Source: a virus. From it: a DNA stretch of 36,193 nt. The DNA is taken from UHGV virus genome UHGV-0199352; one strand, given 5' to 3'. The position numbers were made by a program, and so were the translations under genes. A model generated the notes under the pieces. It had not been told where the DNA came from, ran no database searches, and saw only the letters and a list, made by a program, of their open reading frames with translations. Shown here one piece after another: positions 16,923 to 27,683 of the stretch; position 1 is the first letter of the stretch, and the number at the start of each line of letters is the position of its first letter.

Positions 16923-16943
16923 TTTACAACACACTTACAACAA
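16923..16943 (+). repeat. 21-bp direct repeat copy 2, overlapping the int stop codon.
   Basis: Identical 21-mer to 16726-16746. Confidence 0.5.
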
Positions 16944-18089
16944 ATTGATTTCTATTTTTTCAATCTCATTTCTTAAGTCTTCCAATGTCCGGTGACCATA
17001 TGTGTCATTTGTAATATCACCTATCTTATGTCCAAGCATTCTTTTTCGATCATTCTCCGCGACTTTATATTTTTCGCACAATTTTGAAAATGTGTGCCGG
17101 CAATCATGCGGAGTATGCTTTTCAATTCCAAGTGTGGCCAGTTGAGTATACATCTTATCCCGGAATATATCGATTCTATCAGGCAGGAGCGCTCCATGTG
17201 TTTTCATCCGGCGTTTTACGAGATCTAAAATACCGGAATAAATAGGAACGATTCTGTTTTTCCCAGCATCCGTTTTGATACCGCCGAAAAAATAACGTTC
17301 TTTCAAATTTACATCTAAAGTCTTATATTCCGATATCCGAAAGCCGGAGTAGCACATGATCAAGATCATCTCAGACACTTCATTTTCTTTTGTTTCCCAC
17401 AATTTCTTCAAATCTTCATCAGTAAATGGAATTCCATGTTCATCATCGTCATCCTGTGTAATTTCGACATAAGATGAATAATCTTTTGTACACAAATTAT
17501 TTGACATAGCATATTTGTACATGTGGCAGTATAGATTTTGGATGTGTTCTATACTGGCGTGTCTGAGTGGACAAGCGTCCATTACTTCCTGCAGATCGTC
17601 TGTAACAAGCTCTGCGAAAATTCTGTTGTGTAGGGCAGCAGAGTTCTTGAATCCTGCGCGTAGCGTATATTCCAAGCTGGTACGTTTTACTTTTTTTGCA
17701 TCGTATTCATGCCCGAATTTCTTAACATTGAATTTACGAAATACTTCCGCAAATGTTAATTGCGGCTCTTCCTTTGCTTTAATTCCTTGCACCTGATTAT
17801 AATTTGCAAGCAGAGACTGGATAAAATCCTCCGCATTCTTTTTGTCATCCACCTGGATATCATTTTCCATGCCGGGAGTATAGGTGCCGGCTTTGTATGC
17901 TGTAAGAACTGCAAAGCCGATCATCCAGTCAGAAACATAGCATATTGCTTTCTGTGGCTTCATTTGCCCGTTTTCGTATTCTTCTTTAGCTGGCGGGTAA
18001 ACGCCGTAAGGATTGCGGCGATTCTTACCCAGGAAGCGTATCTGGCCGTAACCATTGGGCAAACGAGGATGCTTTTTTCTTTTGGCCAT
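16935..18089 (-). CDS. int: Tyrosine recombinase / phage integrase.
   Basis: RBS AAGGAGA sits 7 nt before the ATG (MAKRKKHPRLPNGYG...). The C-terminus has a tyrosine-recombinase catalytic region (...HDCRHTF...LGH...Y). The track's longer ORF starts at 18134. Confidence 0.9.
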   Translation of the reverse strand: MAKRKKHPRLPNGYGQIRFLGKNRRNPYGVYPPAKEEYENGQMKPQKAICYVSDWMIGFAVLTAYKAGTYTPGMENDIQVDDKKNAEDFIQSLLANYNQVQGIKAKEEPQLTFAEVFRKFNVKKFGHEYDAKKVKRTSLEYTLRAGFKNSAALHNRIFAELVTDDLQEVMDACPLRHASIEHIQNLYCHMYKYAMSNNLCTKDYSSYVEITQDDDDEHGIPFTDEDLKKLWETKENEVSEMILIMCYSGFRISEYKTLDVNLKERYFFGGIKTDAGKNRIVPIYSGILDLVKRRMKTHGALLPDRIDIFRDKMYTQLATLGIEKHTPHDCRHTFSKLCEKYKVAENDRKRMLGHKIGDITNDTYGHRTLEDLRNEIEKIEINLL

Positions 18090-18286
18090 ATCATCATCTC
18101 CTTTAAATTTAGGTATAAAAATAGCAGCCAGCACATGAACGAATGTTCTGGATTGTGTAGCTGCTCCGAAGATGATACAATATTCTTGGCTTCAGATTGC
18201 ATATCTTCGGATATGTAGACCGTCTCAGTGTTGGTAGCACTGGGGCGGTTTTAAATTTGATTTTAATATGTAAATGTGTAAATATG

Positions 18287-18470: not shown

Positions 18471-20058
18471 AATGATTTTCTTTCAAATCAAGATACATAA
18501 CGCAACGTTTAAAATGAGTAGATTTCATAGCCTCATCCCGATTATATTCGAATATTTCTTTACAAGAACTCCTAATCTGCTCATTAGTTAAATTGTATAA
18601 GTTCTTTAAAAGTAATCCTGATTTCTTCTGTACATTAGGATTAGAATTTATTTCTGTCATCAATTTTGTATAATCGGTATATATAGGAAGGGCATTGATT
18701 GTCTTTTCAATATTTTTACTTATTATTTTTTCGATAGAGTCGTGTTTACTAATATAAATATCCAATTTACTACCTGGAATAATAGGTGTGGAGGAATTTT
18801 TTACGTATTTAAAAACAGGTAATAATCTAGTGTAGGCCAAAGATTTAAACCGGTCTATACACATTGAATCTGGATTAAAATTTTTATTATTGTATAAAAT
18901 ATCTTCAAATATCAAATCGTCTTCAAAAAGACCATACCCAAATTTGCTTAGTATATTTTCTTTATAACCAATTGCGATAGCCAAGGGTTTTGAAGAAAGG
19001 TCGATTTTAGTAAGATCATCAAGACCGATAATTACAGATTCTGCTTGTGCAGAGGCTATGTTCGCATCAACAATAGTTTTAATCACTCTTTTGGTTTCTC
19101 TAATTTTAATAGGAGAGACTCCAGGGGTTATTTGATTGAGAATATCGTATACTAGACCGAAATTATCAGTGGAAATTTCGGTAATAGGTATATCTTCCCC
19201 AGATTGCGTAGTAATAGTTCTGTGTATTTCAACTAATTTACGTTCTCCCTTTTTGTAACTAATAAAGATGAAGTGTTCTCGGATATTTTCAAGTTGAGTC
19301 AAAGATAAACAACTTAAAAAATCTACGATGATATTTTGAATATTTTCATCTGTAAAGGAATAACCAAGAAATACTATTGGAGATTCCGAAAAGAGAGTAA
19401 GCATTTTCGCAATAAGCAATTTTCGAGACTCGTTAAATTTCATATAGTCATCTTCAGTTATAACGATAGAGGATGCATCGGTTGCAGATCCATGAATTTT
19501 GTATATTTCTGCAATATTATAGCTGTCAGAACCAAACAAGTCACTTTGATTCACAAAAATACTGTAATCGTTAGGAAATATCTCGTTTTCTAGGAACAAA
19601 TCATAATTAGTGGTTATAATAGCGGATATTTTGGATTTTAGTAATTTGAATTTATCCAGTTCCAGATTAAGGTCATTTCGTCTATATAACTTCATTTTCT
19701 TAAAATAAGAAGAAAGATACATTTTAAAGGGAGAGATACCTTTTCTAACCCAGTTAGGATTTTTGTTATTACCGATATTGAGCTTGATTTTTCTGTCGAA
19801 GAATGCAGCATTAAAATCATTTTCTATTATCGTTGCTAATTTCGTATTTATTTCAAAGGTAGAATAACCTTGTCTAAGAAAAGATTCTTTATATTTTTGT
19901 AATTGAAAAATATCAGAATTATACTTTTTGAATGCTATTTCTAGTAGTTCATTCCAATCAGGATAATTATAAAGATATCTCTTAGATATTCCAGAACCAA
20001 TAAATAATACTGGAAGTTTATTACTTTCGACTAAGCGTTCTAATGCATTGCTCGCCAT
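18469..20058 (-). CDS. SIR2-family (SIR2_2 / ThsA-like) NADase-domain protein. Candidate anti-phage defence moron.
   Basis: 529 aa. Motifs GSGIS (Gly loop), TTNYD (catalytic Asn), KIHGS (catalytic His) and FLGYSFTDENI. The C-terminal ~250 aa is unassigned. The gene is markedly AT-rich and sits between int and cI. RBS GAGGGGG. Confidence 0.7.
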   Translation of the reverse strand: MASNALERLVESNKLPVLFIGSGISKRYLYNYPDWNELLEIAFKKYNSDIFQLQKYKESFLRQGYSTFEINTKLATIIENDFNAAFFDRKIKLNIGNNKNPNWVRKGISPFKMYLSSYFKKMKLYRRNDLNLELDKFKLLKSKISAIITTNYDLFLENEIFPNDYSIFVNQSDLFGSDSYNIAEIYKIHGSATDASSIVITEDDYMKFNESRKLLIAKMLTLFSESPIVFLGYSFTDENIQNIIVDFLSCLSLTQLENIREHFIFISYKKGERKLVEIHRTITTQSGEDIPITEISTDNFGLVYDILNQITPGVSPIKIRETKRVIKTIVDANIASAQAESVIIGLDDLTKIDLSSKPLAIAIGYKENILSKFGYGLFEDDLIFEDILYNNKNFNPDSMCIDRFKSLAYTRLLPVFKYVKNSSTPIIPGSKLDIYISKHDSIEKIISKNIEKTINALPIYTDYTKLMTEINSNPNVQKKSGLLLKNLYNLTNEQIRSSCKEIFEYNRDEAMKSTHFKRCVMYLDLKENH

Positions 20059-20266
20059 GTTTTCCCCCTCTTTCTTTTCTGTATTTTGTCATCATACCAT
20101 TATATAAACGCCGAAGCGGTTATACCATATTAAATTAAAATCTGCCATCAAGTCCTATAAAATATTAGAACAAATGTTCGAATAAATATTGATTTTTGTT
20201 CTCCCTGATAGTATTATATTACTAGGGATTTCGAACAAGTGTTTTTGCAGTTAGGGGGATGGCAAA

Positions 20267-20368
20267 ATGGATTACAAAAGCAAAATTATCGAACTTATCA
20301 ACGGTATAAGTAATACTGCAAAATTAGAGTATCTTTATTATGTGATAAGATCGTTTCTTAAAGGGTAG
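20267..20368 (+). CDS. Micro-ORF encoding 33 aa (MDYKSKIIELINGISNTAKLEYLYYVIRSFLKG).
   Basis: GGGGGA RBS 7 nt upstream. Putative promoter TTGATT-N17-TATTAT at 20189-20217 overlaps TTCGAA operator-like sites. A hairpin follows the stop. Confidence 0.25.
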   Translation: MDYKSKIIELINGISNTAKLEYLYYVIRSFLKG

Positions 20369-20369
20369 G

Positions 20370-20714
20370 CTATTGCTTACCCTTTTTAGAAAGCGATTCG
20401 ATAAGATGCTTTATGGCTTTCTTGTCGGATTCGTCTAAAGAATAGTAACAAGATATCATATTAATAATCTCTTGATCTTTCATTATCCGTCCAACTAATG
20501 TTCCACTTTCCTCTCTGGAATAATTTCCAAAAAAGTCGTTTGGTATCATTTCAAGCACTTCACATAATCTTTCTATAGTATCAGCGTCTGGTTTATTCTT
20601 GTTGTTTTCCCAATCGCTTATTGAATTATGTTTTGCACCTATTAAATTCGCAAGTTCTTTTTGAGTCATGTTTTTCTTTTTTCTGTATTCTTTTATTTTC
20701 TCTCCTAAACTCAT
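20370..20714 (-). CDS. cI-like repressor (XRE-family HTH, no S24 peptidase domain).
   Basis: AAGGAGGAA RBS before ATG 20714 (MSLGEKIKEYRKKKNMTQKELANLIG...). Divergent from the cro-like gene. Confidence 0.75.
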   Translation of the reverse strand: MSLGEKIKEYRKKKNMTQKELANLIGAKHNSISDWENNKNKPDADTIERLCEVLEMIPNDFFGNYSREESGTLVGRIMKDQEIINMISCYYSLDESDKKAIKHLIESLSKKGKQ

Positions 20715-20774
20715 TATGTTTCCTCCTTGCATCTTCTATATTAACACATGGAAATTATATTTTCAATAAAAAAA

Positions 20775-20852
20775 GTTCGAAAAAATTGAAATTTTAGTGT
20801 TGACATTCGAATATTTTGAAGTTATAATGAAATTAGTTCGAACGAATTGAAA
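20775..20852. promoter_or_regulatory. Operator array and early rightward promoter in the cI/cro intergenic region.
   Basis: Three 17-bp sites: GTTCGAAAAAATTGAAA (20775-20791), ATTCGAATATTTTGAAG (20805-20821) and GTTCGAACGAATTGAAA (20836-20852), ~30 bp apart. Consensus promoter TTGACA (20800-20805)-N17-TATAAT (20823-20828). Confidence 0.55.
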
Positions 20853-20873
20853 AATGAAAGAGGTGATTACAGA

Positions 20874-21077
20874 ATGTGTGTAGGTGAAAGAATTAAGGCT
20901 TACATGGATGAAAAAGGAATTAAGCAGGTTTTTGTTTCACAAAAAACAGGGATATCGAAAGAAAAGCTTTGTTCATCATTAAACGGAAATAGAAAATTGC
21001 AATTTGAAGAATACGAGTTGATCTGCGGAGCACTGGAAGTGAATACGGACAAGTTTATTAAACCGAAGAAATTGTAA
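20874..21077 (+). CDS. Cro-like XRE-family HTH protein.
   Basis: AAAGAGGTGA RBS 7 nt before ATG 20874 (MCVGERIKAYMDEKGIKQVFVSQKTGISKEKL...). The track's TTG start at 20847 lacks an RBS. Confidence 0.7.
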   Translation: MCVGERIKAYMDEKGIKQVFVSQKTGISKEKLCSSLNGNRKLQFEEYELICGALEVNTDKFIKPKKL

Positions 21078-21088
21078 AGGAGAATCAA

Positions 21089-21403
21089 ATGAACAATTTA
21101 ACAGTATTTGAACAAAACGGTCAGCTACTCACCGACAGTAGAGAAGTAGCAATGACACAAGAAGAACGCAACGAATACTTATTAAAACACGAAAATTTTA
21201 TTCGCTGCGCTCGGTGCAAAAATTTAATACACAGTTCAAACAAATATTGTCAATATTGTGGATGTCCTAATGAAAAAGAACTCCAAGCTATTAAAAAAAG
21301 CAAGGAGCTCAGTTCCGATATTGTGCTTAATGGAAAGATTATTTCTCAAGCTGTTCGGAAAGCCATTTGTGATACAACTCAAGAAGACGGACGTTCATTT
21401 TAA
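21089..21403 (+). CDS. Rha-like N-terminal region plus a zinc-ribbon protein. Possibly an antirepressor-like regulator.
   Basis: AAAGGAGA RBS. MNNLTVFEQNGQLLTDSREVAM resembles the Rha/antirepressor N-terminus. CARCKN...CQYCGC is a 4-Cys ribbon. Its 3' end overlaps a convergent ORF by 65 nt. Confidence 0.4.
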   Translation: MNNLTVFEQNGQLLTDSREVAMTQEERNEYLLKHENFIRCARCKNLIHSSNKYCQYCGCPNEKELQAIKKSKELSSDIVLNGKIISQAVRKAICDTTQEDGRSF

Positions 21404-21563
21404 AACTGAATCCAGCTATAAATCCGGCTATTTCGTTAAAAGCATTAGGGTCTCCAAGAGATGTTTCAAGCGTTGGATAATCCTCATCATTAACGCCGTT
21501 GATATAGTCGATATCTTCTTGTGTTAACGATTTTTTAAATTCGTCAAAAGATTTAAGTACCAT
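21339..21563 (-). CDS. Hypothetical 74-aa protein driven from copy 1 of the repeated bidirectional module.
   Basis: AAAGGAGA RBS. A TTGTCA-N17-TATAAT promoter lies inside the repeat on the - strand. Confidence 0.35.
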   Translation of the reverse strand: MVLKSFDEFKKSLTQEDIDYINGVNDEDYPTLETSLGDPNAFNEIAGFIAGFSFKMNVRLLELYHKWLSEQLEK

Positions 21564-21570
21564 AGTCGAT

Positions 21571-21673
21571 CTCCTTTCTTAAATACTCGGCATTGGCAGA
21601 TGCCTGTAAGCAAATTATAGGAGATATGGAAACAAATGACAATAAATATTCAAAAAAGAAAGAGGTGAGAAAG
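21571..21673. repeat. Copy 1 of a ~104-bp duplicated bidirectional promoter/operator module.
   Basis: Near-identical to 21975-22078. It contains the palindrome GGCATTGGCAGATGCC, a - strand TTGTCA-N17-TATAAT promoter, a + strand TTGGCA-N17-TATAGG, and conserved RBSs at both ends. Confidence 0.7.
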
Positions 21674-21835
21674 ATGTTAAAAAAGATTTACAGTGAACTG
21701 CTCCTTATAAGGAGAGAAATAAAGCAGCTCAACAAGACTTTGGAAAGAAATGTTGAACTGCAAAATAAAATGCGTGATGAGCCAATGTTTATACCGAGCT
21801 ACTCACGTTCGTCCAAAGAACATACTGCTGAATAA
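21674..21835 (+). CDS. Hypothetical 53-aa protein (MLKKIYSELLLIRREIKQLNKTLERN...).
   Basis: AAAGAGGTGAGAAAG RBS from the repeat. The longer track ORF starting at 21593 runs through the repeat and is not conserved in copy 2. Confidence 0.35.
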   Translation: MLKKIYSELLLIRREIKQLNKTLERNVELQNKMRDEPMFIPSYSRSSKEHTAE

Positions 21836-21966
21836 CATGATTTGAGTATGTTCTCTACATCATCACCAGACAATGGTTTGTGCATATTATTTTGGCTCAT
21901 TTGAGCCATGGCCATCAATGCGGATTTCGCCAAATCTACAGCGAGTTCCTTGTTTGATTTATCCAT
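21799..21966 (-). CDS. Hypothetical 55-aa protein (MDKSNKELAVDLAKSALMAMAQMSQNNMHKPLSGDDVENILKSCYSAVCSLDERE).
   Basis: Not in the track because it is under 60 aa. AAAGGAGA RBS from copy 2 of the repeat. Convergent 37-nt overlap with 21674-21835. Confidence 0.35.
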   Translation of the reverse strand: MDKSNKELAVDLAKSALMAMAQMSQNNMHKPLSGDDVENILKSCYSAVCSLDERE

Positions 21967-21974
21967 AACTACAT

Positions 21975-22078
21975 CTCCTTTCCTAAATACTCGGCATTGG
22001 CAGATGCCTGTAAGTAAATTATAGGAGAGTTGGAAACAAATGACAATAAAGATTCAAAAAAGAAAGAGGTGAGAAAAA
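21975..22078. repeat. Copy 2 of the duplicated bidirectional promoter/operator module.
   Basis: See copy 1. Only a few substitutions between the two copies. Confidence 0.7.
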
Positions 22079-22441
22079 ATGTGTTGGAGCGGAAGTGAAG
22101 GAATACCGGGAATGGATTCCACCCAAGAAGAGCAGGAACGGACAGGAAAGAAGTTATATGCTCAATCGTACAGAATCGATCAAATGGAATTTAATTCATT
22201 AAAATCAAGATTAAAAGACCTTGAAGCAGAGGTGGAAAGTCTTAAGATCAAGGCACTCTTATTACTGGTGATCTGTGTAGTAATTTCAATTTTTGCATCA
22301 TTTTCAGTCATGAATATCGCAAGACAGTATTCAACTATTCATGACTATTACATGGATTCTCGGAGTACTGATCAGGAGATAAGTCAATCTCTGGAAGAAC
22401 TGATTCCGAAGATAGAAGTACTTCAGTCAGAATTTAAATAA
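22079..22441 (+). CDS. Membrane protein with a coiled-coil N-terminus and a central TM helix.
   Basis: 120 aa. RBS from repeat copy 2. Hydrophobic segment LLLLVICVVISIFASFSVM. Confidence 0.45.
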   Translation: MCWSGSEGIPGMDSTQEEQERTGKKLYAQSYRIDQMEFNSLKSRLKDLEAEVESLKIKALLLLVICVVISIFASFSVMNIARQYSTIHDYYMDSRSTDQEISQSLEELIPKIEVLQSEFK

Positions 22442-22455
22442 GGAGGGAAAACACA

Positions 22456-22851
22456 ATGTTTAGCACTGTAAAAATAGAAAACGGGGTAATTTTGGACGGC
22501 AAGAAACTTAAATGCGTGAAATCATACAAATTAGAACAGAAAGAGAGAGATGATATCGCAGAACTTACAGTAAATATGGATGTTCGGGTTTTTTGTAAGG
22601 ACGATAAGCCGTCCGATATCAAAGTTGGAACTATTAAGGCGGACAAGCCATCTGGATTGAGGTTGGCGGACTTGGCAAATGTAATTGGAGAAGATGCACA
22701 CGTGAGAGTTGTATACCAAACTGGAATGGGGACGGCAGTAAATGTATATGAACCTGGAGGCATTTCGATGGAAGACCCTAAATTTTTGGAAAAACCTGTG
22801 AAAACAATACGAACCATTATTGGTGTGCTGGTTGTAGAATTGGAGGACTAA
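22456..22851 (+). CDS. Hypothetical protein.
   Basis: 131 aa. GGAGGGAAAAC RBS. Coding-like composition. Confidence 0.45.
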   Translation: MFSTVKIENGVILDGKKLKCVKSYKLEQKERDDIAELTVNMDVRVFCKDDKPSDIKVGTIKADKPSGLRLADLANVIGEDAHVRVVYQTGMGTAVNVYEPGGISMEDPKFLEKPVKTIRTIIGVLVVELED

Positions 22852-22852
22852 C

Positions 22853-23038
22853 ATGGAAATTGTAATAGCAAGCGTTATCTGCTCGATCATGGTTTCTGCT
22901 GTTACAAGCATTATTATTACAAGGGAATACATGAGCGTTACTCAAAACGAGGTAGATAGGATGTTCAACATGAGTATTAAGCTTGTCGAGGATGTTGCAA
23001 AAATGATGGCTGATAGATTTGGAACAGACCAGAAATAA
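22853..23038 (+). CDS. Small membrane protein.
   Basis: 61 aa. The N-terminal 25 aa are hydrophobic. It directly abuts the upstream ORF. Confidence 0.35.
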   Translation: MEIVIASVICSIMVSAVTSIIITREYMSVTQNEVDRMFNMSIKLVEDVAKMMADRFGTDQK

Positions 23039-23079
23039 ATTACGACAATCCAACCTGCATACATAAGTGAGGTGAGAAC

Positions 23080-23313
23080 ATGAACACTGCAATTACGTTA
23101 AAAGAAACATTAAAAACTGCAGAGATTGCAAAGATTACCGGTTGTTCCGTGAACGAAGTACGATACCGTATGAGACACAACATCTGGACATTTGGAGTCG
23201 TGCGGAAGACCGGGGCAGTAAAGAAACACTATGAAGCTACTATTTCCGAAGTGGCTGAGTTCTTCAGACTGAGCCGGGAGGAAGTTATCAGGAGGTTAAA
23301 CGATGGGAAATAA
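23080..23313 (+). CDS. HTH DNA-binding protein (excisionase / regulator-like).
   Basis: 77 aa. RBS GAGGTGAG. The segment AEIAKITGCSVNEVRYRM has HTH character. Confidence 0.5.
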   Translation: MNTAITLKETLKTAEIAKITGCSVNEVRYRMRHNIWTFGVVRKTGAVKKHYEATISEVAEFFRLSREEVIRRLNDGK

Positions 23314-23557
23314 GAGATTAACCATACAAAGAGTTGATCAATTCATCAGGCTCCTGGGAGCAACTGAAAAAGTGAACGGGTATGCAGAACAGCAGAAGCA
23401 GCATGCGATTGCCTGTTTAAATAATTATTGCAGGGAGTTGGAGTATCAAAATAGAAAATCAGTAAAAATCAAAGGAGAAACAGATGGACCAAAGGATCTT
23501 GAACATGACAGCAGGGCAAGTTCTGGAATACGGAGCACTTGTCAGCAGGAGGGATGA
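23303..23557 (+). CDS. Hypothetical protein.
   Basis: 84 aa with ATGGGAAATAA overlap. A 45-aa alternative ORF (23505-23642) overlaps its 3' end in another frame. Confidence 0.3.
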   Translation: MGNKRLTIQRVDQFIRLLGATEKVNGYAEQQKQHAIACLNNYCRELEYQNRKSVKIKGETDGPKDLEHDSRASSGIRSTCQQEG

Positions 23558-23978
23558 ACTGAGGCAGCTTCAGGAAAATGAAGAAGTAACTGCAGAATTA
23601 AATCTGATAGAGGAGAGGATCAAAGAACTTGGATTTGAATGAAGAGAAGGAGAGGAAACAGATATGGATCATTCGTTGGCAGTCCGGCAGAATACGGAGC
23701 GAATATGGAACATACGAAGAGGCGAAACAGGTAGCAGAAGAAATCGGAGGAGAGTACATCATTGTATGAGCTTCAGGGAGAGAAGAAAGATTCGGTACAC
23801 TTTGGAACTGTTGCGGATTCTGGAAGCGGCTGCAGCAGTATGCACAGTGATGATGATAGAAGCGGGAACATTGTGGATAGGAATGATACTCGTTATTTTG
23901 GTGATTGAGTTCTGTTGCCGATACATAGAAAAAAGTATAAAAAAGTAGTGCACCTGCCGCAAACAGATGCACCGGATA

Positions 23979-24081
23979 TTTTGCCAATACAAACAAAATA
24001 AAAACTCATTTATATTGTACACCTGTATTGGCAAAATGTCAAAGAAAATGAGAGCAAAAAGCTCCCGTTTTTCACTTGATA
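23979..24081 (+). promoter_or_regulatory. Candidate double-strand origin / Rep operator. A 13-bp inverted repeat plus a CTTGATA nick-like motif upstream of rep.
   Basis: TTTTGCCAATACA (23979-23991) and TGTATTGGCAAAA (24024-24036), then CTTGATA at 24075-24081, about 30 bp before the Rep ATG. Confidence 0.4.
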
Positions 24082-24109
24082 AGAATATTAAACTTAGGAG
24101 CAAAACAGG

Positions 24110-24832
24110 ATGTATAAACGAAAGAGTTATGACCTGGGAGACATCAGAGAAGTGATGGAGTATCACAATGGGAGATATGGTGCTCCGGGAATGCCGAGAA
24201 TGAAAAAGAAGAAAGCCACACCAGAGCAGATCAGGAAAGTGAATCAGTGGAATAAAGAACGGCAGTGCTGGAGAAAGATGAAGCTGAACTTTCAGGAGAA
24301 TGACTACTGGGTGACATTGACTTATAAGCCGGAGAACAGGCCAGAAGATATGGAGAACGCAGCAAAAGACATCAGGAAGTGGCTCAATAAAGTACGGACA
24401 CAATACAAGAAACGGGGAGCAGAACTGAAATGGATGCTGCATACCGAGATTGGAAGCCGGGGTGGTGTTCATCATCATCTGGTCATCAACCGGATTCCGG
24501 ATGCAGATTTGATTATGCGAAAGGTATGGGACAAGGGTGGAGTCCACATGGATTTAATGTATGACGAGGGTGGGTTTCGAAAACTGGCCGAGTATTTAAG
24601 TAAAACGCCGGATGAAGAAAACAAACTGAGAGAGAGCCGGTACTCCTGCAGCAGAAATCTGAAGATTCCGGTTGCGGAAGTAAAGACATATAAAAGAAAA
24701 ACATGGAGTGACGAGCCGAAACCGCCAAAAGGCTATTATCTTGACAAAGAAACATACCATGAAGGAATCAATCCGGTAACAGGACACAAATACCGAAGAT
24801 ACATCCTGATCCGTTTGAACAGGAGAATTTGA
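24110..24832 (+). CDS. Rolling-circle replication initiator, HUH endonuclease of Rep_1 (pC194/pUB110) type.
   Basis: 240 aa. Motif I-like YWVTLTY, HUH motif GGVHHHLVIN, and an active-site-Tyr motif KLAEYLSKTPDE resembling pC194 ELSKYPVKDTD (recalled). Confidence 0.6.
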   Translation: MYKRKSYDLGDIREVMEYHNGRYGAPGMPRMKKKKATPEQIRKVNQWNKERQCWRKMKLNFQENDYWVTLTYKPENRPEDMENAAKDIRKWLNKVRTQYKKRGAELKWMLHTEIGSRGGVHHHLVINRIPDADLIMRKVWDKGGVHMDLMYDEGGFRKLAEYLSKTPDEENKLRESRYSCSRNLKIPVAEVKTYKRKTWSDEPKPPKGYYLDKETYHEGINPVTGHKYRRYILIRLNRRI

Positions 24833-24833
24833 T

Positions 24834-25271
24834 ATGAAAGCATTGAATATTTACATACGGACAAGTCTGACGGGGCCATGTATCAAAGATGGGTGCTGGG
24901 CGGCTGCAATCGAATATCAGACAAGGAAAGGTCCGGCAGTCAAAGGAATATGTGGGGCGGAGAAAGAGACAACGTATTATCGCCTGGTACTGCTTGGAAT
25001 CGTAGAATCCTTAAAAACACTAAATACGGCATGCCATGTGACCTTATATACAGACTGTATTTTTATCAAGAATATGATTGAAAACGGAAAACCGGAGCAG
25101 TGGAAACGGTCAGAGTGGAGAAAGCCATCTGGAAAGGGGATCAAGAATCCAGAATTATGGCAGCAGTATCAGGAACTGGCAGAGCGGAATGAAATAGCCG
25201 TCAGATTTAGTAAACATCACGATTACGTGGAAAAATTAGAGAAATTACTGGAGGAAAAACAGCATGTTTGA
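24834..25271 (+). CDS. RNase H-like fold protein, apparently missing two of the four catalytic carboxylates.
   Basis: 145 aa. By eye it aligns to E. coli RNase HI. IYIRTSL aligns to IFTDGSC, YYRLVLLG to NNRMELMA, and YTDC to STDS (Asp kept). ...WKRSEWRKPSGKGIKNPELWQQYQEL aligns to ...[26 protein letters not shown]. Confidence 0.45.
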   Translation: MKALNIYIRTSLTGPCIKDGCWAAAIEYQTRKGPAVKGICGAEKETTYYRLVLLGIVESLKTLNTACHVTLYTDCIFIKNMIENGKPEQWKRSEWRKPSGKGIKNPELWQQYQELAERNEIAVRFSKHHDYVEKLEKLLEEKQHV

Positions 25272-25719
25272 TGTATTTGGAAATTTTGATTCCGTAGAAG
25301 AATTGAATGCATGTGCAAAAGGACTTTTGGAGGAGCAGGATCTGGAGCATTTAAAAGTGCTGGCAGAGGAAAACGGGATTCCGGATGGAATCCGGGAAGT
25401 ATATGAGCAGCATCTGTCGGAAGAACTGGTAGATTTAGTAAATGCGGCACTTGGAAAGCTTCAGATCGAGTTAAAGGAGGAAACGGACGGGATGCCGGCA
25501 GGAGAGATCGTGTCGTATCTGTCCATGAGGTGCTTCGAAAAAGAAACTCTGGCAAAAGCAGTAAGAAGAAAGAACCGGACACTCAAAGAATGTCTGAAGC
25601 ATATCCGGAAAGAAGCAGAAAAAAGAGTCAAAGAAAGAAGCGGGTCACAAATGGTGGCAATGCCGGATCTGGAAGTATTTGCCATGGCAGAAGAATACTA
25701 TCTGGAGGCGGAGAAATGA
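25264..25719 (+). CDS. Hypothetical acidic protein.
   Basis: 151 aa, with ATG overlapping the upstream stop. Confidence 0.4.
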   Translation: MFDVFGNFDSVEELNACAKGLLEEQDLEHLKVLAEENGIPDGIREVYEQHLSEELVDLVNAALGKLQIELKEETDGMPAGEIVSYLSMRCFEKETLAKAVRRKNRTLKECLKHIRKEAEKRVKERSGSQMVAMPDLEVFAMAEEYYLEAEK

Positions 25720-27683
25720 GACGAGGAGAGTTATTAAAGCTTCCAGAGTTAAAAGTAACGGAAACTATGCGAAAGACAGTCAGGGAAGATCAAGGACATC
25801 AGGTACTAAGATGTGGAAGACCACCTGTCTGGAGTGCAACATATTATTGGTTCTATCGTGCCAAGAAGACAGGAACGGTTTTAGAGATCGATGTATTTAC
25901 AAGGGATATGATCTTGGCTGGCACAGCACATCCGGAATACCGGCTATTCCTTTTGGAAGAAAACAAGTACTACACCTATGACAATTTGTGTGAGAAGTGG
26001 AGAACTGCAAAAATAGATAACTTAAGCTACATGGAAGGATGTGAAGAGATACAACAAGGGTACTGGTACAGTAGCAGAAAAGTGTGGATACGAGAAGAGG
26101 ATCAAAAACGGATCTCAGAATTTTGTCACAACGGAAAGAAAGAGCCACGTGCAGCAATCGCAAGATGGCAAAATTACAGTAAGGGCAGAAAAGAAATTGA
26201 CGAAATTGATTCTGAGATGGCACTGGTGCCGGAACTGCCAAAAGATTTTGATGATTTTGTAGATCGGGAAGTCCTTCCACAGTATTTGTTTTATGATGCC
26301 GGAAGAAAGGTAACAAAAGGGTATTGCACACATTGTGGAAGAGAAGTAAAAATCAGGAATCCACACTATGGAGACGAGGGCGAATGTCCATCCTGCAGAC
26401 ATCCCATTACCTACCGAAGTCGAAAGAAAGGCGGAAATGTTCACGCAAGAGGATATGCAGGACTCCTGCAGAAAACAAAAGAGGGGTATGTATACCGATA
26501 TTTTGAGTGTTATCGGAAATTCAGGAATGGACAAAAGGGAGATGGCGGGTACTGGGAGCTGATACGGATCACGTATGACCGGAATTTAAAAAAGATTCAT
26601 GAATTTGAATATGAACAGTATAAGCAGACAGACTGGGTTCGGTGGTGTTGCAGAGACGGATGGAGATATTATGCAAAAGTGGTAGAGCATGAAGCAATCC
26701 TCTATAACCGGAATCTCAAGCAGATCTTAAAAGGAACACCGTTTCAGTATTCTGCAATGGAACGTTTTGTGAAACATGGGAAATATCGGGAAAAAATGTA
26801 TTTGGATCAATATCTGGAGGGATACCGGTATATGCCTGGAATCGAACAGCTGGTAAAGTGTGGGTTTTACAGAATTGTCAAAGAAAAAATGCAGGGGTAC
26901 AACACAGGAAACTTAAAGAAGAAAGAGAGGTCTTGTAAAAAGATACTGGGGCTAAACGGGGAATGCTACCAGCTGTTGGCTGGAAAGAATCCAAGCACAA
27001 GGGAATACAACACCACTTATAAAATGCAGGAAAAGGGATTGCATCCAACATGGCAGCAGGTTCAGTTTTTTGCAAGGTTTCCGAGGAATTTCACCAGGTA
27101 TATCCGGTATACCACCATTCACAAGATGGAACGGTACATCAAAGAAGTGTTAGGAGAAGATGAGAGACGAGCCGTGGATTATCACGATTATCTGAAGATG
27201 GCAGAGGAACTGGGGTATAACATGCGAGAGCCGTGGATCTTATTCCCGAAGAATTTAGAACAGCGTCATGAAGAGTTGATTGAAGAGAGCAGAGAACGAG
27301 AAATAAAAGCCAAAGAGGATTTGGACAATAAAAAAGACAAAAGATACGAGCAATATAGAAAACGGGACAGTTATCTGGAAATGGAAACAGAACAATTTTT
27401 ATTGAGGCTTCCGAAACGAATCCATGAAATCCGACAGGAAGGAAATGCCATGCATCACTGCGTCGCCACGTATATTGACCGGGTGGCAAAAGGAGAGACA
27501 ACGATTCTATTCCTGCGAAAGAAGCAGGATCCGGAGACACCGTTTTATACCATGGAGGTAAACAATGGGGTGATGATCCAGTGTCGGGCAAAATATAACG
27601 GAGACATGACAGAGGAAGTCAAAGAATTTGTTGAGCTATTCAAAAGAAAGAAGTTGAAACGTACAGAAAGGAAAGCTGGATAG
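25716..27683 (+). CDS. PcfJ-like protein with a central zinc ribbon.
   Basis: ATGA overlap with the upstream gene and GGAGG RBS. The C-terminal motif NAMHHCVATYIDRVAKGETTILFLRKK is reminiscent of the PcfJ family. CTHCGREVKIRNPHYGDEGECPSC is a zinc ribbon. The track start at 25530 adds an implausible K/R-rich N-terminus. Confidence 0.5.
   Translation: MRRGELLKLPELKVTETMRKTVREDQGHQVLRCGRPPVWSATYYWFYRAKKTGTVLEIDVFTRDMILAGTAHPEYRLFLLEENKYYTYDNLCEKWRTAKIDNLSYMEGCEEIQQGYWYSSRKVWIREEDQKRISEFCHNGKKEPRAAIARWQNYSKGRKEIDEIDSEMALVPELPKDFDDFVDREVLPQYLFYDAGRKVTKGYCTHCGREVKIRNPHYGDEGECPSCRHPITYRSRKKGGNVHARGYAGLLQKTKEGYVYRYFECYRKFRNGQKGDGGYWELIRITYDRNLKKIHEFEYEQYKQTDWVRWCCRDGWRYYAKVVEHEAILYNRNLKQILKGTPFQYSAMERFVKHGKYREKMYLDQYLEGYRYMPGIEQLVKCGFYRIVKEKMQGYNTGNLKKKERSCKKILGLNGECYQLLAGKNPSTREYNTTYKMQEKGLHPTWQQVQFFARFPRNFTRYIRYTTIHKMERYIKEVLGEDERRAVDYHDYLKMAEELGYNMREPWILFPKNLEQRHEELIEESREREIKAKEDLDNKKDKRYEQYRKRDSYLEMETEQFLLRLPKRIHEIRQEGNAMHHCVATYIDRVAKGETTILFLRKKQDPETPFYTMEVNNGVMIQCRAKYNGDMTEEVKEFVELFKRKKLKRTERKAG

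What the first reader, a model, noticed from the sequence alone, without database searches (positions are those of the whole stretch)
21571..22078. Duplicated ~104-bp bidirectional promoter/operator module, each copy flanked by different small genes
The 103- and 104-nt copies at 21571-21673 and 21975-22078 differ by only a few substitutions. Each contains, on the - strand, a strong TTGTCA-N17-TATAAT promoter whose +1 region is the palindrome GGCATTGGCAGATGCC, and a conserved AAAGGAGA RBS. On the + strand each has a weaker TTGGCA-N17-TATAGG element embedded in the same palindrome and a conserved AAAGAGGTGAGAAA RBS. The four genes they drive are unrelated: 74 aa and 55 aa leftward, 53 aa and a 120-aa membrane protein rightward. 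A conserved regulatory chassis has therefore been duplicated and the cargo swapped. The palindrome is the obvious binding site for a single regulator toggling both copies. This looks like a modular early-gene switch, plausibly for host-takeover or anti-defence genes, rather than a random repeat.
Basis: seen in the sequence. Interest (0 to 1): 0.55.

Follow-up and report, generated by a model that had tools for sequence, protein, structure and literature searches.

The report
Repeated leftward promoter-leader cassette in prophages
The duplicated 104-base segment is one of hundreds of copies of a conserved cassette (promoter, small hairpin, ribosome site) found in temperate phages of gut Clostridia, where it drives ever-changing small backward-facing accessory genes and marks where those genes are swapped by recombination.

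Summary
The repeat is real: 21569-21672 and 21973-22076 are 95% identical, and their flanks are unrelated. It is not a private duplication. The same module occurs 392 times in 351 fetched loci, mostly Lachnospiraceae phages and prophages, in same-orientation arrays of up to four copies.

Three features are conserved:
- A minus-strand sigma-A-type promoter (-35 TTG, 17-nt spacer, -10 TATNNT).
- A hairpin beginning at the predicted transcription start. Its stem covaries (28 Watson-Crick variants) and its loop is conserved.
- A strong ribosome-binding site.

A different small leftward gene follows each copy: 125 protein clusters, median 74 aa, mostly of unknown function. These genes converge on, and usually overlap, the rightward early genes, with almost no terminators. 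Sequence homology between phages starts and stops at the module edges, and one relative carries a hybrid module of the kind a module-by-module deletion would leave.

Two claims are not supported. The proposed rightward promoter is not conserved. The "palindrome" behaves as a structure-selected hairpin, most likely in the 5' end of the leftward mRNA, not as an operator for one regulator.

The closest analogue is the PeSL cassette of T4-like phages. This is a new variant of a known kind. Expression timing and hairpin function are inferred, not shown.

The parts
21569..21672 (.). Module copy 1 (104 nt), lying between the 74-aa leftward gene and the 53-aa rightward gene
   Evidence: Repeat family D1; alignment A1; nhmmer family hit
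21973..22076 (.). Module copy 2 (95% identical to copy 1), lying between the 55-aa leftward gene and the 120-aa rightward gene
21614..21642 (-). Copy 1 leftward sigma-A-type promoter: -35 TTGTCA (21642-21637), 17-nt spacer, -10 TATAAT (21619-21614), with a T-rich tract upstream
   Evidence: Consensus scan, 11 of 12. Position-specific conservation across the family in an unbiased set.
22018..22046 (-). Copy 2 leftward promoter TTGTCA-17-TATAAT
21584..21608 (-). Copy 1 leader hairpin. The minus-strand RNA reads UAC-A-GGCAU-CUGCCA-AUGCC-GA-GUA. The predicted transcription start is the A at 21607, 7 nt after the -10, so the hairpin sits at the extreme 5' end.
   Evidence: Sequence. Covariation of three stem pairs, with 4 pair types each and 96-99% paired. 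Fixed 5-nt distance from the -10. The start site is inferred, not mapped.
21988..22012 (-). Copy 2 leader hairpin (identical inner hairpin at 21993-22008); predicted start near 22011
21571..21578 (-). Copy 1 Shine-Dalgarno AAAGGAGA, 6 nt before the ATG of the 74-aa gene
   Evidence: Sequence. 377 of 392 family instances have an ORF at this spacing.
21975..21982 (-). Copy 2 Shine-Dalgarno AAAGGAGA for the 55-aa gene
21659..21672 (+). Rightward ribosome-binding site AAAGAGGTGAGAAA for the 53-aa gene. It overlaps the T-rich region upstream of the leftward -35.
   Evidence: The A-run just before it varies in length between relatives, so this stretch is not coding.
22063..22076 (+). Rightward ribosome-binding site for the 120-aa gene
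21339..21563 (-). Leftward cargo 1: 74 aa, function unknown. Its 3' end overlaps the convergent 104-aa gene by 65 nt.
   Evidence: phrog_7728, unknown function. Ten unannotated homologues. AlphaFold2 pLDDT 88.7, three helices, no PDB match.
21799..21966 (-). Leftward cargo 2: 55 aa, function unknown. It overlaps the convergent 53-aa gene by 37 nt.
   Evidence: phrog_13376, unknown function. Five homologues. Two-helix model, pLDDT 80.
21674..21835 (+). Rightward cargo 1: 53 aa. Together with the 55-aa gene and one module it forms the 404-bp unit, which five other loci also carry next to different left neighbours.
22079..22441 (+). Rightward cargo 2: 120-aa coiled-coil protein with one hydrophobic segment. 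Its homologue is annotated gp30 in Ruminococcus gnavus phages.
20800..20828 (+). Context: the early rightward promoter (TTGACA-17-TATAAT, 12 of 12) upstream of the cro-like gene. It is the presumed source of the plus-strand transcripts that must run head-on through both modules.
   Evidence: cI-like gene at 20370-20732 (-) and cro-like gene at 20847-21077 (+).

Best explanation
Each copy is a self-contained leftward expression cassette embedded backwards in the early rightward operon of a temperate phage.

From -35 to start codon it consists of:
- a host sigma-A-type promoter with a T-rich upstream tract;
- a transcription start 7 nt after the -10 (inferred);
- a small stem-loop that begins at the first transcribed nucleotides;
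- an A/U-rich linker;
- a strong Shine-Dalgarno sequence.

The right-hand end of the module is the ribosome-binding site of the next rightward gene. That gene is probably transcribed by read-through from the cro promoter, not from the module.

The cassette drives one small, highly variable accessory gene. This gene converges on the preceding rightward gene, usually overlaps it, and has no terminator. Leftward and rightward transcription must therefore collide.

Inferred model: when the repressor shuts the early promoter in a lysogen, the cassettes express their cargo, as morons do. On induction, head-on early transcription damps them. In the other direction, they may damp leaky early transcription.

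The hairpin is selected for structure. It most likely acts in the leftward mRNA as a 5'-terminal stem-loop that, together with the strong ribosome-binding site, protects the message from 5'-end-dependent decay. Its conserved loop suggests that a shared, probably host-encoded, factor also reads it.

The roughly 100-nt cassette is far better conserved than anything around it, so it also serves as the homology patch for recombination. Recombination between copies inserts, deletes and swaps gene units, and that is how this window came to carry two copies with different cargo.
For: Shown here:
- Family size. Strict and loose pattern scans found 43 loci, then 106 loci among one-genome-per-species representatives (Blautia, Dorea, Faecalicatena, Sellimonas, Roseburia and others). 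Six Ruminococcus gnavus phages and an Acetoanaerobium phage also carry the module at the same genomic position.
- Promoter. In 71 unique sequences collected with a pattern covering only the ribosome-binding site, leader and hairpin, the minus-strand -10 lies exactly 5 nt before the hairpin. It has T1 in 93%, A2 in 92% and T6 in 99%, and TTG lies 17 nt upstream in 79%.
- Leftward ORF. 377 of 392 instances have an ORF at Shine-Dalgarno distance.
- Hairpin. The three stem pairs left free by all search patterns each show four Watson-Crick types and are 96-99% paired. The covariation score is 0.377 against 0.134 in shuffles (0 of 500 reach it), and it collapses when the partners are slid. There are 28 distinct Watson-Crick stems, and the loop is conserved (TGGCAG, TGGCGG, TGCCAG).
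- Strand. Among non-Watson-Crick stem pairs, 29 would be G-U in the minus-strand RNA, 11 would be G-U in the plus-strand RNA, and 8 are true mismatches.
- Arrays. Loci carry 2 to 4 copies, always in one orientation, with a period of 400-800 nt.
- Convergent layout. 265 of 268 left cargos face a plus-strand ORF and 211 overlap it. Only 27 have a terminator-like site downstream.
- Mosaic junctions. BLAST match end-points pile up at 21550-21575, 21650-21699, 21950-21999 and 22050-22099.
- Recombination product. L037 carries one hybrid module made of the left half of L030 copy 1 and the right half of L030 copy 2.
- Cargo swap in a relative. phiRg519T2 has two other genes where the window has the 53-aa gene, the 55-aa gene and module 2.
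- No trans factor nearby. No window gene is conserved together with the module; the best is the replication initiator, in 84 of 350 loci.

From established knowledge: 5'-terminal stem-loops and strong ribosome-binding sites stabilise mRNAs in Firmicutes, as in the aprE and ermC leaders. Convergent promoters interfere with each other, as pR and pL do in coliphage 186.
Against: - No transcript data exist. The promoter, the start site and the timing of expression are all predictions.
- The hairpin is thermodynamically weak. Folding z-scores run from -0.08 to -0.99 for the window copies and reach only -2.3 for the Acetoanaerobium copy, and the minimum-energy fold of the window leaders is not always the hairpin.
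- A pure stabiliser would not need a conserved loop.
- G-U-type intermediates occur on both strands (29 against 11, not corrected for relatedness or mutation bias), so the strand assignment is suggestive only.
- The outer TAC/GTA pairing and the flanks TACTNGG and CCTGTA were fixed by my search patterns, so their conservation proves nothing.
- Most cargo has no known function, so 'accessory genes expressed in the lysogen' rests on orientation and analogy.
- The ORF overlap counts use mechanical ORFs.
Confidence: 0.68

Rival explanations
1. Operator model. The inverted repeat at about +4 to +19 is the DNA binding site of a dimeric repressor that switches all copies of the leftward promoter together.
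For: The site overlaps the start of the transcribed region, a classic roadblock position. Copies within one genome share an identical hairpin more often than random pairs do, 26% against 3.9%. Non-Watson-Crick intermediates occur in both strand senses, which a DNA site would tolerate.
Against: - The half-sites are the variable part (28 complementary versions), whereas the asymmetric centre is conserved. This is the opposite of a typical dimer operator.
- 57% of within-genome pairs have different arms.
- Same-hairpin pairs are also more alike elsewhere in the module (80% against 64% promoter identity), as recent duplication would produce.
- The motif is absent from the rest of the window, and the immunity region uses GTTCGAA-like sites.
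- No candidate regulator gene travels with the module, and the 72 representatives of the most frequent cargo clusters (of 125) include no Pfam HTH family.
- The flanks are asymmetric: 1 nt against 2 nt between the inner and outer pairs.
Confidence: 0.12
2. Regulatory RNA hairpin read by a protein. The conserved loop on a structure-only stem is the recognition element for an RNA-binding factor that controls translation, processing or elongation of the leftward mRNA. This would tie accessory-gene expression to host state.
For: The loop sequence is held (minus strand CUGCCA, CCGCCA, CUGGCA) across many different stems. The hairpin keeps a fixed position between the start site and the ribosome-binding site. 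The module spans many host genera with no phage gene conserved alongside it, which fits a host factor.
Against: No known RNA family matches, either in the window at E up to 5 or in six other loci at E up to 1. No candidate factor was identified. Loop conservation could partly reflect shared ancestry.
Confidence: 0.15
3. Plus-strand function. The module is a true bidirectional promoter (TTGGCA-17-TATAGG rightward), or its hairpin acts in the rightward early transcript as a nut-like antitermination or processing site.
For: The hairpin can also form in the plus-strand RNA. It lies a few genes downstream of cro, as nutR does in lambda. Eleven stem variants are G-U only in the plus sense. A few relatives carry extra promoter-like sequence to the right of the module.
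Against: - The plus-strand hexamer ends in T in only 7% of unbiased sequences, and GGAG is not general.
- Up to four copies in series are not expected of a nut site.
- The hairpin keeps a fixed distance to the minus-strand -10 and ribosome-binding site, and 96% of copies have a minus-strand ORF.
- No run of U follows the hairpin on either strand.
Confidence: 0.05

Closest known systems
PeSL (promoter-early stem-loop) cassettes of T4-like phages (Arbiol et al. 2010, PMC2839356; Comeau et al. 2014, PMC4122927)
   Same: - A conserved composite of about 100 nt: strong host-type promoter, AT-rich upstream tract and a stem-loop.
- Repeated many times in a hyperplastic region.
- Placed immediately upstream of small genes of unknown function.
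- Recombination between copies deletes, inserts or replaces the flanked genes. The relation of L030 to L037 here mirrors their ORF192 example.
   Different: - The PeSL stem-loop is an experimentally shown terminator placed around or upstream of the promoter. Here the hairpin lies downstream of the start site, has no U-tract, and terminators are largely absent.
- PeSL genes run with the surrounding genes. Here the cassette is antisense to the operon it sits in.
- PeSLs belong to lytic myoviruses of Gram-negative hosts. These cassettes belong to temperate siphovirus-like phages of Clostridia.
- There is no sequence similarity.
- Mini-circles were not tested here.
Morons of lambdoid and other temperate phages (own knowledge: Juhala et al. 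2000; Hendrix et al. 2000; lysogen expression reviewed in PMC7067206)
   Same: An extra gene with its own promoter, inserted between genes of a phage operon, absent from close relatives at the same place, and expected to be expressed from the prophage.
   Different: Classical morons carry their own terminator and are thought to arrive by illegitimate recombination without conserved linkers. Here a conserved linker is the defining feature, and only about 10% of copies have a terminator-like site.
Anti-CRISPR (acr-aca) operon promoters (own knowledge)
   Same: A strong promoter with an inverted repeat near the start site, driving very diverse small proteins in phage genomes.
   Different: No conserved aca-type HTH gene follows the cargo. 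The transcription unit is a single small ORF. The repeat arms covary freely and differ between copies within one genome.
5'-terminal stabiliser stem-loops of Firmicutes mRNAs (own knowledge: aprE leader, ermC, phage SP82 stabiliser; cryIIIA STAB-SD)
   Same: A hairpin within the first few transcribed nucleotides, combined with a strong Shine-Dalgarno sequence.
   Different: Those are single-gene cases with measured half-life effects. Here nothing has been measured, the stem has only 5 pairs (8 with the outer pairs), and the loop is conserved.
Convergent-promoter interference in phage switches (own knowledge: coliphage 186 pR/pL; lambda PRE and oop reading antisense to cro and cII)
   Same: A leftward promoter placed downstream of cro that fires against the early rightward transcript.
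   Different: In those phages the leftward transcript makes, or helps make, the repressor. Here it encodes variable accessory proteins, comes in arrays, and no interference has been measured.

Membership tests
PeSL cassettes (T4-like phages) | Strong sigma-70-type promoter with an AT-rich upstream region, directly upstream of a small ORF | tested here: met
   Minus-strand promoter scores 11 of 12. Conserved by position in an unbiased set. ORF at ribosome-binding-site distance in 377 of 392 instances. Promoter activity itself was not measured.
PeSL cassettes (T4-like phages) | Stem-loop that works as a transcription terminator or attenuator for upstream transcription | tested here: not met
   The hairpin lies downstream of the predicted start. 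No U-run follows it on either strand, and the terminator scan does not list it.
PeSL cassettes (T4-like phages) | Copies act as homology patches, so that flanked ORFs are inserted, deleted or replaced between relatives | tested here: met
   Match end-points cluster at the module edges. L037 carries a hybrid module where L030 has two copies. 232 cargo combinations.
PeSL cassettes (T4-like phages) | Located in hyperplastic regions of T4-like myovirus genomes, with genes co-oriented with their neighbours | tested here: not met
   Temperate phage with integrase and a cI/cro pair. The cassette is antisense to the surrounding genes.
Moron (autonomous prophage transcription unit) | Own promoter | tested here: met
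   (prediction plus conservation)
Moron (autonomous prophage transcription unit) | Own terminator | tested here: not met
   Terminator-like site within 200 nt downstream in 27 of 268 cargos. The 3' ends overlap the convergent gene in 211. There is none between the window's gene pairs.
Moron (autonomous prophage transcription unit) | Gene present or absent between otherwise similar phages at the same locus | tested here: met
Moron (autonomous prophage transcription unit) | Expressed from the repressed prophage | not testable with these tools
   Needs lysogen transcriptomics. Only the orientation (same as the repressor and integrase) is known.
acr-aca anti-CRISPR operon | Conserved HTH (aca) gene in the same operon, which binds the promoter inverted repeat | tested here: not met
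   The leftward unit is a single ORF followed by a convergent gene. No Pfam HTH family appears among the 72 representatives of the most frequent cargo clusters.
Intrinsic terminator | G+C-rich stem followed by a U-tract | tested here: not met
   Sequence; scan
Any Rfam RNA family | Covariance-model match | tested here: not met
   No match over the modules, in the window at E up to 5 or in six other loci at E up to 1
Lambda-type nut site (boxA + boxB) | Single hairpin plus boxA in the early sense transcript, paired with an N-like antiterminator | tested here: inconclusive
   The hairpin can form in the plus-strand RNA. However, it occurs in arrays of up to 4 copies, is locked to minus-strand promoter and ribosome-binding-site spacing, and no conserved partner gene was found. 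No boxA test is available.
Integron attC cassette array | Structured recombination sites recognised by an IntI integrase; promoterless cassettes in one orientation | tested here: not met
   Each unit carries its own promoter. The only integrase is a phage-type tyrosine integrase, phrog_1. The module sequence, not just its structure, is conserved.

The most novel reading that the evidence does not exclude
The module would be a previously undescribed class of cis-regulatory element of Clostridia prophages. Its parts would be a start-site-proximal hairpin with a conserved CUGCCA-type loop, read by a conserved host factor, set in arrays of head-on promoters inside the early operon. Together these would form a transcription-interference device. 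It would express a rotating set of accessory or defence genes only in the lysogen, insulate the replication and late genes from leaky early transcription, and provide the portable linker through which gut phages trade such genes.
Probability: 0.2. Interest if true: 0.7.

Novelty: new variant of a known kind. Interest (0 to 1): 0.55.

Why it matters
- **A hotspot marker.** The module gives a simple sequence handle of about 100 nt for finding the accessory-gene hotspot of a very large group of human-gut temperate phages. That hotspot holds more than a hundred families of small proteins of unknown function, among them an Abi_alpha protein and a PADLOC candidate.
- **A testable gene-shuffling mechanism.** It extends linker-mediated gene shuffling, so far documented for lytic T4-like phages, to temperate phages of Gram-positive anaerobes, and it makes the mechanism testable, for example by inverse PCR for excised circles.
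- **A new candidate RNA element.** The covarying 5' hairpin with a conserved loop is a candidate new RNA element that is absent from Rfam.
- **A practical tool.** If the promoter behaves as predicted, the cassette would also be a compact, portable expression signal for Lachnospiraceae, which have few genetic tools.

Tried and rejected
1. **Segmental duplication that includes the ORFs.** Rejected, because identity stops at the module edges and the cargo proteins are unrelated.
2. **A ten-codon leader peptide (MTIKIQKRKR) inside the module.** Rejected, because the A-run varies in length between relatives and breaks the frame.
3. **A sigma-54 promoter around TGGCAG.** Rejected, because the GG-N10-GC spacing is not met (sequence inspection).
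4. **A known RNA family.** None matched.
5. **An operator of the phage's cI or Cro.** Rejected, because the immunity region carries GTTCGAA-type repeats and the palindrome is absent there.
6. **A phage regulator conserved together with the module.** tblastn with 19 window proteins found none. The flank length of the loci limits this test.
7. **Thermodynamic support for the hairpin.** Folding z-scores are not significant for the window copies, so the case rests on covariation.
8. **An anti-SD/SD clamp.** The idea was that CUCC upstream of the -10 pairs with the leftward Shine-Dalgarno sequence in read-through RNA. The fold predicts this pairing, but GGAG next to TATA is not general in the unbiased set. 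Left as speculation.
9. **Function of the two window cargo proteins.**
   - Pfam, PHROGs and homologue searches gave nothing informative.
   - AlphaFold2 predicts helical proteins, and the 74-aa model has no PDB fold match.
10. **Type I toxin.** Rejected, because the cargo proteins are not hydrophobic.
11. **Other repeat classes considered.**
    - CRISPR-like or Racr repeat: rejected because the repeat and spacer architecture differs.
    - MITE or insertion sequence: rejected because there are no terminal inverted repeats.
    - Integron attC site: rejected because each unit has its own promoter and there is no IntI integrase.
12. **Literature.** Four searches found no description of this element. 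The R. gnavus phage paper does not discuss promoters.
13. **First scan of species-representative genomes with the strict 27-mer.** It found nothing; the looser pattern was needed.
Full report
**1. The observation**

The window is a temperate phage genome. It carries the following genes:
- structural genes;
- a tyrosine integrase at 16935-18134 (-);
- a cI-like HTH gene at 20370-20732 (-);
- a cro-like gene at 20847-21077 (+), behind a perfect TTGACA-17-TATAAT promoter at 20800-20828;
- small early genes;
- a replication initiator from 24110.

The repeat finder gives one 104-nt family at 21569-21672 and 21973-22076, 95% identical and 404 nt apart. It is by far the best repeat in the window. Alignment shows that identity ends abruptly on both sides.

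The minus-strand promoters TTGTCA-17-TATAAT score 11 of 12. GGCATTGGCAGATGCC occurs exactly twice. Both ribosome-binding sites and all four ORFs are there. The two leftward proteins are unrelated to each other, and so are the two rightward proteins.

Two details need correcting. The 'palindrome' is 5+5 complementary bases around a non-palindromic TGGCAG. The proposed rightward -10 (TATAGG) lacks the final T.

**2. The module belongs to a large family**

BLAST against phage records found the same region in six Ruminococcus gnavus phages and an Acetoanaerobium phage. In each, the annotation shows the same layout: rightward early genes, then one small leftward gene, then an intergenic module of about 105 nt, then more rightward genes. 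The leftward gene differs between phages: 74, 118, 51 or 68 aa.

Pattern scans widened the family:

| Scan | Pattern | Result |
|---|---|---|
| Viral contigs | strict 27-mer | 43 loci, several with 2-3 copies |
| Species-representative genomes | strict 27-mer | none |
| Species-representative genomes | looser leader pattern | 106 loci |

The genome hits include Blautia, Dorea, Faecalicatena, Sellimonas, Extibacter, Roseburia, Robinsoniella, Hominibacterium and Anaerovoracaceae.

In all I collected 392 instances in 351 loci. In the first 265 loci, 194 had one copy, 43 had two, 6 had three and 2 had four. No locus had copies in both orientations. The array period is 400-800 nt: one module, one small rightward ORF and one small leftward ORF.

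The window's own 404-bp unit (module, 53-aa gene, 55-aa gene) recurs in L011, L030, L034 and L042 next to different left neighbours.

**3. What is conserved**

My first patterns forced part of the promoter. I therefore used the scan built only from the leftward ribosome-binding site, leader and hairpin to judge the rest. In its 71 unique sequences:
- The minus-strand -10 lies exactly 5 nt before the hairpin's outer base pairs. It has T1 in 93%, A2 in 92% and T6 in 99% (TATACT, TATTCT, TATCCT or TATAAT).
- TTG lies 17 nt further upstream in 79%.

So a leftward sigma-A-type promoter is conserved and a rightward one is not.

With the -10 fixed, the expected start is the A of TAC (21607 and 22011 in the window). 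The RNA would begin ACAGG..., with the hairpin at its very 5' end. This start site is inferred.

Of the 392 instances, 377 have a minus-strand ORF at Shine-Dalgarno distance. The run of A's between the -35 and the rightward ribosome-binding site varies in length. This rules out a conserved leader peptide there.

**4. The hairpin**

None of my patterns constrained stem positions 3 to 5.
- On a gapless alignment of 150 distinct sequences (A4), each of these three pairs shows four Watson-Crick types and is 96-99% paired.
- For the whole tested structure (14 pairs, including an exploratory outer helix), the covariation score is 0.377 against 0.134 in shuffles (0 of 500 reach it). The score collapses to 0.04-0.11 when the partners are slid.
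- There are 126 distinct hairpins and 28 distinct Watson-Crick stems.
- The 6-nt centre is conserved as TGGCAG, TGGCGG or TGCCAG; on the minus strand these read CUGCCA and so on.

Structure is therefore selected in the arms, and sequence is selected in the loop. This is the opposite of a typical dimer operator.

Among non-Watson-Crick stem pairs, 29 would be G-U in the minus-strand RNA, 11 would be G-U in the plus-strand RNA, and 8 are true mismatches. This favours the leftward transcript. It is not decisive, because it is not corrected for relatedness or mutation bias.

The hairpin is thermodynamically weak, and its folding z-scores are unremarkable. No Rfam family matches.

Within one genome, 26% of copy pairs share an identical hairpin, against 3.9% of random pairs. 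Those pairs are also more alike across the promoter (80% against 64%), as recent duplication or gene conversion would produce. In 57% of within-genome pairs the arms differ.

The palindrome is absent from the rest of the window. The immunity region instead carries clustered GTTCGAA-type sites. None of the 19 neighbouring window proteins is conserved together with the module; the best, the replication initiator, occurs in 84 of 350 loci.

Taken together, this argues against one phage regulator reading the palindrome. It argues for a cis-acting element that relies on host machinery.

**5. Cargo and layout**

The leftward proteins number 280 unique sequences in 125 clusters, with a median length of 74 aa. 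Pfam recognises few of them:
- DUF2513 (the largest cluster);
- one Abi_alpha;
- DUF2321, KTSC, DUF1883, YjzC and YozE-like families;
- zinc ribbons.

PADLOC finds one candidate system protein (PDC-S47) and a weak Cas2-like hit. The PHROG matches are almost all 'unknown function'.

The window's own 74-aa and 55-aa proteins have only a handful of unannotated homologues. They fold as small helical proteins, and the 74-aa model has no PDB fold match.

The rightward neighbours are just as varied: 277 unique proteins in 168 clusters, giving 232 left-by-right combinations.

Of 268 leftward genes with enough context, 265 face a convergent rightward ORF and 211 overlap it at the 3' end (median 15 nt). 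Only 27 have a terminator-like site within 200 nt downstream. In the window the overlaps are 65 nt and 37 nt.

The cassettes are therefore embedded antisense in the early operon without insulation. Rightward transcripts from the cro promoter must traverse them head-on.

**6. Recombination**

I compared window 19000-26000 with all fetched loci by BLAST. Match starts pile up at 21550-21575 (36) and 21950-21999 (39). Match ends pile up at 21650-21699 (44) and 22050-22099 (38).

Relative to the window, phiRg519T2 keeps everything up to the right edge of module 1. It then carries two other genes (gp28 and an antirepressor) and rejoins at the ribosome-binding site of the 120-aa gene.

L030 has two modules, as the window does. 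L037 has a single hybrid module: the left half of L030 copy 1 joined to the right half of L030 copy 2. The crossover lies inside the shared stretch TACTCGGCATTGGCAGATGCCTGTAAG, and the 53-aa/55-aa unit is missing. This is what homologous exchange between two copies would produce.

**7. Mechanism (best reading)**

Shown:
- a conserved leftward promoter, hairpin and ribosome-binding-site cassette;
- a structure-selected hairpin;
- hypervariable cargo;
- an antisense layout without terminators;
- homology breakpoints at the module edges.

Inferred:
- The cassette is constitutively active with host sigma-A. It expresses its cargo when the early promoter is repressed, and head-on early transcription damps it on induction. 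It may in turn damp leaky early transcription.
- The 5'-terminal hairpin, with the strong ribosome-binding site, stabilises the short leftward mRNA.
- The conserved loop is unexplained. It may be read by a host factor.

**8. Comparison with known systems**

The closest described system is the PeSL cassette of T4-like phages. A PeSL is a conserved promoter-plus-stem-loop unit of about 100 bp, placed upstream of orphan genes in hyperplastic regions. PeSLs recombine with each other to delete or insert genes (PMC2839356, PMC4122927).

The present module works like a PeSL as a portable linker with a promoter. It fails two defining features: a terminator stem-loop and co-orientation with the surrounding genes in a T4-like genome.

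It resembles a moron but lacks the terminator and has a conserved linker. It resembles an acr promoter but has no aca gene. I found no prior description.

It is a new variant of a known kind.

Noticed in passing
window 21089-21403 (+): The 104-aa 'zinc-ribbon' ORF is a fusion. Its first 22 or so codons match the start of the antirepressor gp25 of phiRg519T2, and the rest matches gp26 from about codon 14. Relative to that phage the window lacks 775 bp, with a 4-nt overlap of the two matches at 21152-21155. The 80-bp island at 21076-21155 is itself a recurrent homology breakpoint.
   Followed up: partly
window 23940-24045 (-): A near-consensus leftward promoter (TTGACA-17-TACAAT, 24042-24014) is followed about 35 nt after the expected start by a strong terminator (12-pair stem at 23973-23947, then a run of T). 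This predicts an antisense RNA of about 65 nt between two small rightward ORFs, just upstream of the replication initiator gene. It is reminiscent of lambda oop.
   Followed up: partly
window 20160-20370 (+): A 33-aa ORF (20267-20368) with its own ribosome-binding site and a promoter-like site (20189-20217) lies between the 529-aa gene and the cI-like gene. It is bracketed by two GTTCGAA sites (20176, 20230) of the same type as those in the cI-cro intergenic region.
   Followed up: no
L008, L012, L013, L015, L032, L033, L041, L048 (right edge of the module): One common rightward cargo follows ...AAAGAGGTGTGGTAAAAATTAACTGGAA... (or ...ATCAACTGG...). No ATG lies at normal spacing. The ORF would have to start at ATT or ATC, or at a GTG only 1 nt after the ribosome-binding site.
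   Followed up: no
L011 about 2785, L023, L024, L034 about 6334: In one module subtype the ATG inside the leftward -35 region (AAATGACAA) opens directly into MTIKKLKILADYFGVSVDYF..., which looks like the C-terminal half of an XRE-type HTH domain. An in-frame TAG lies just upstream, so the ORF cannot start earlier.
   Followed up: no
P0005, P0011, P0013 (public gene calls for the leftward cargo): Public gene predictions extend these ORFs by about 10 codons (MPSIMK...), starting at the ATG inside the hairpin's 3' arm. In the window that reading hits a stop after 4 codons, so these extensions look like annotation artefacts.
   Followed up: partly
L097 (MAG labelled Bacteroides fragilis): One module hit lies on an 853-kb scaffold of a Bacteroides fragilis MAG, while all other hosts are Clostridia. 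This could be a binning or assembly chimera, or it could be a chance match.
   Followed up: no
L269, L272, L280, L284, L291, L323 (right of the module): In these relatives the sequence immediately right of the leftward -35 carries GCGTTCGACAAAG...TATAAAC. That is a GTTCGA-type site plus a possible rightward promoter, so some family members may be truly bidirectional or repressor-controlled.
   Followed up: partly
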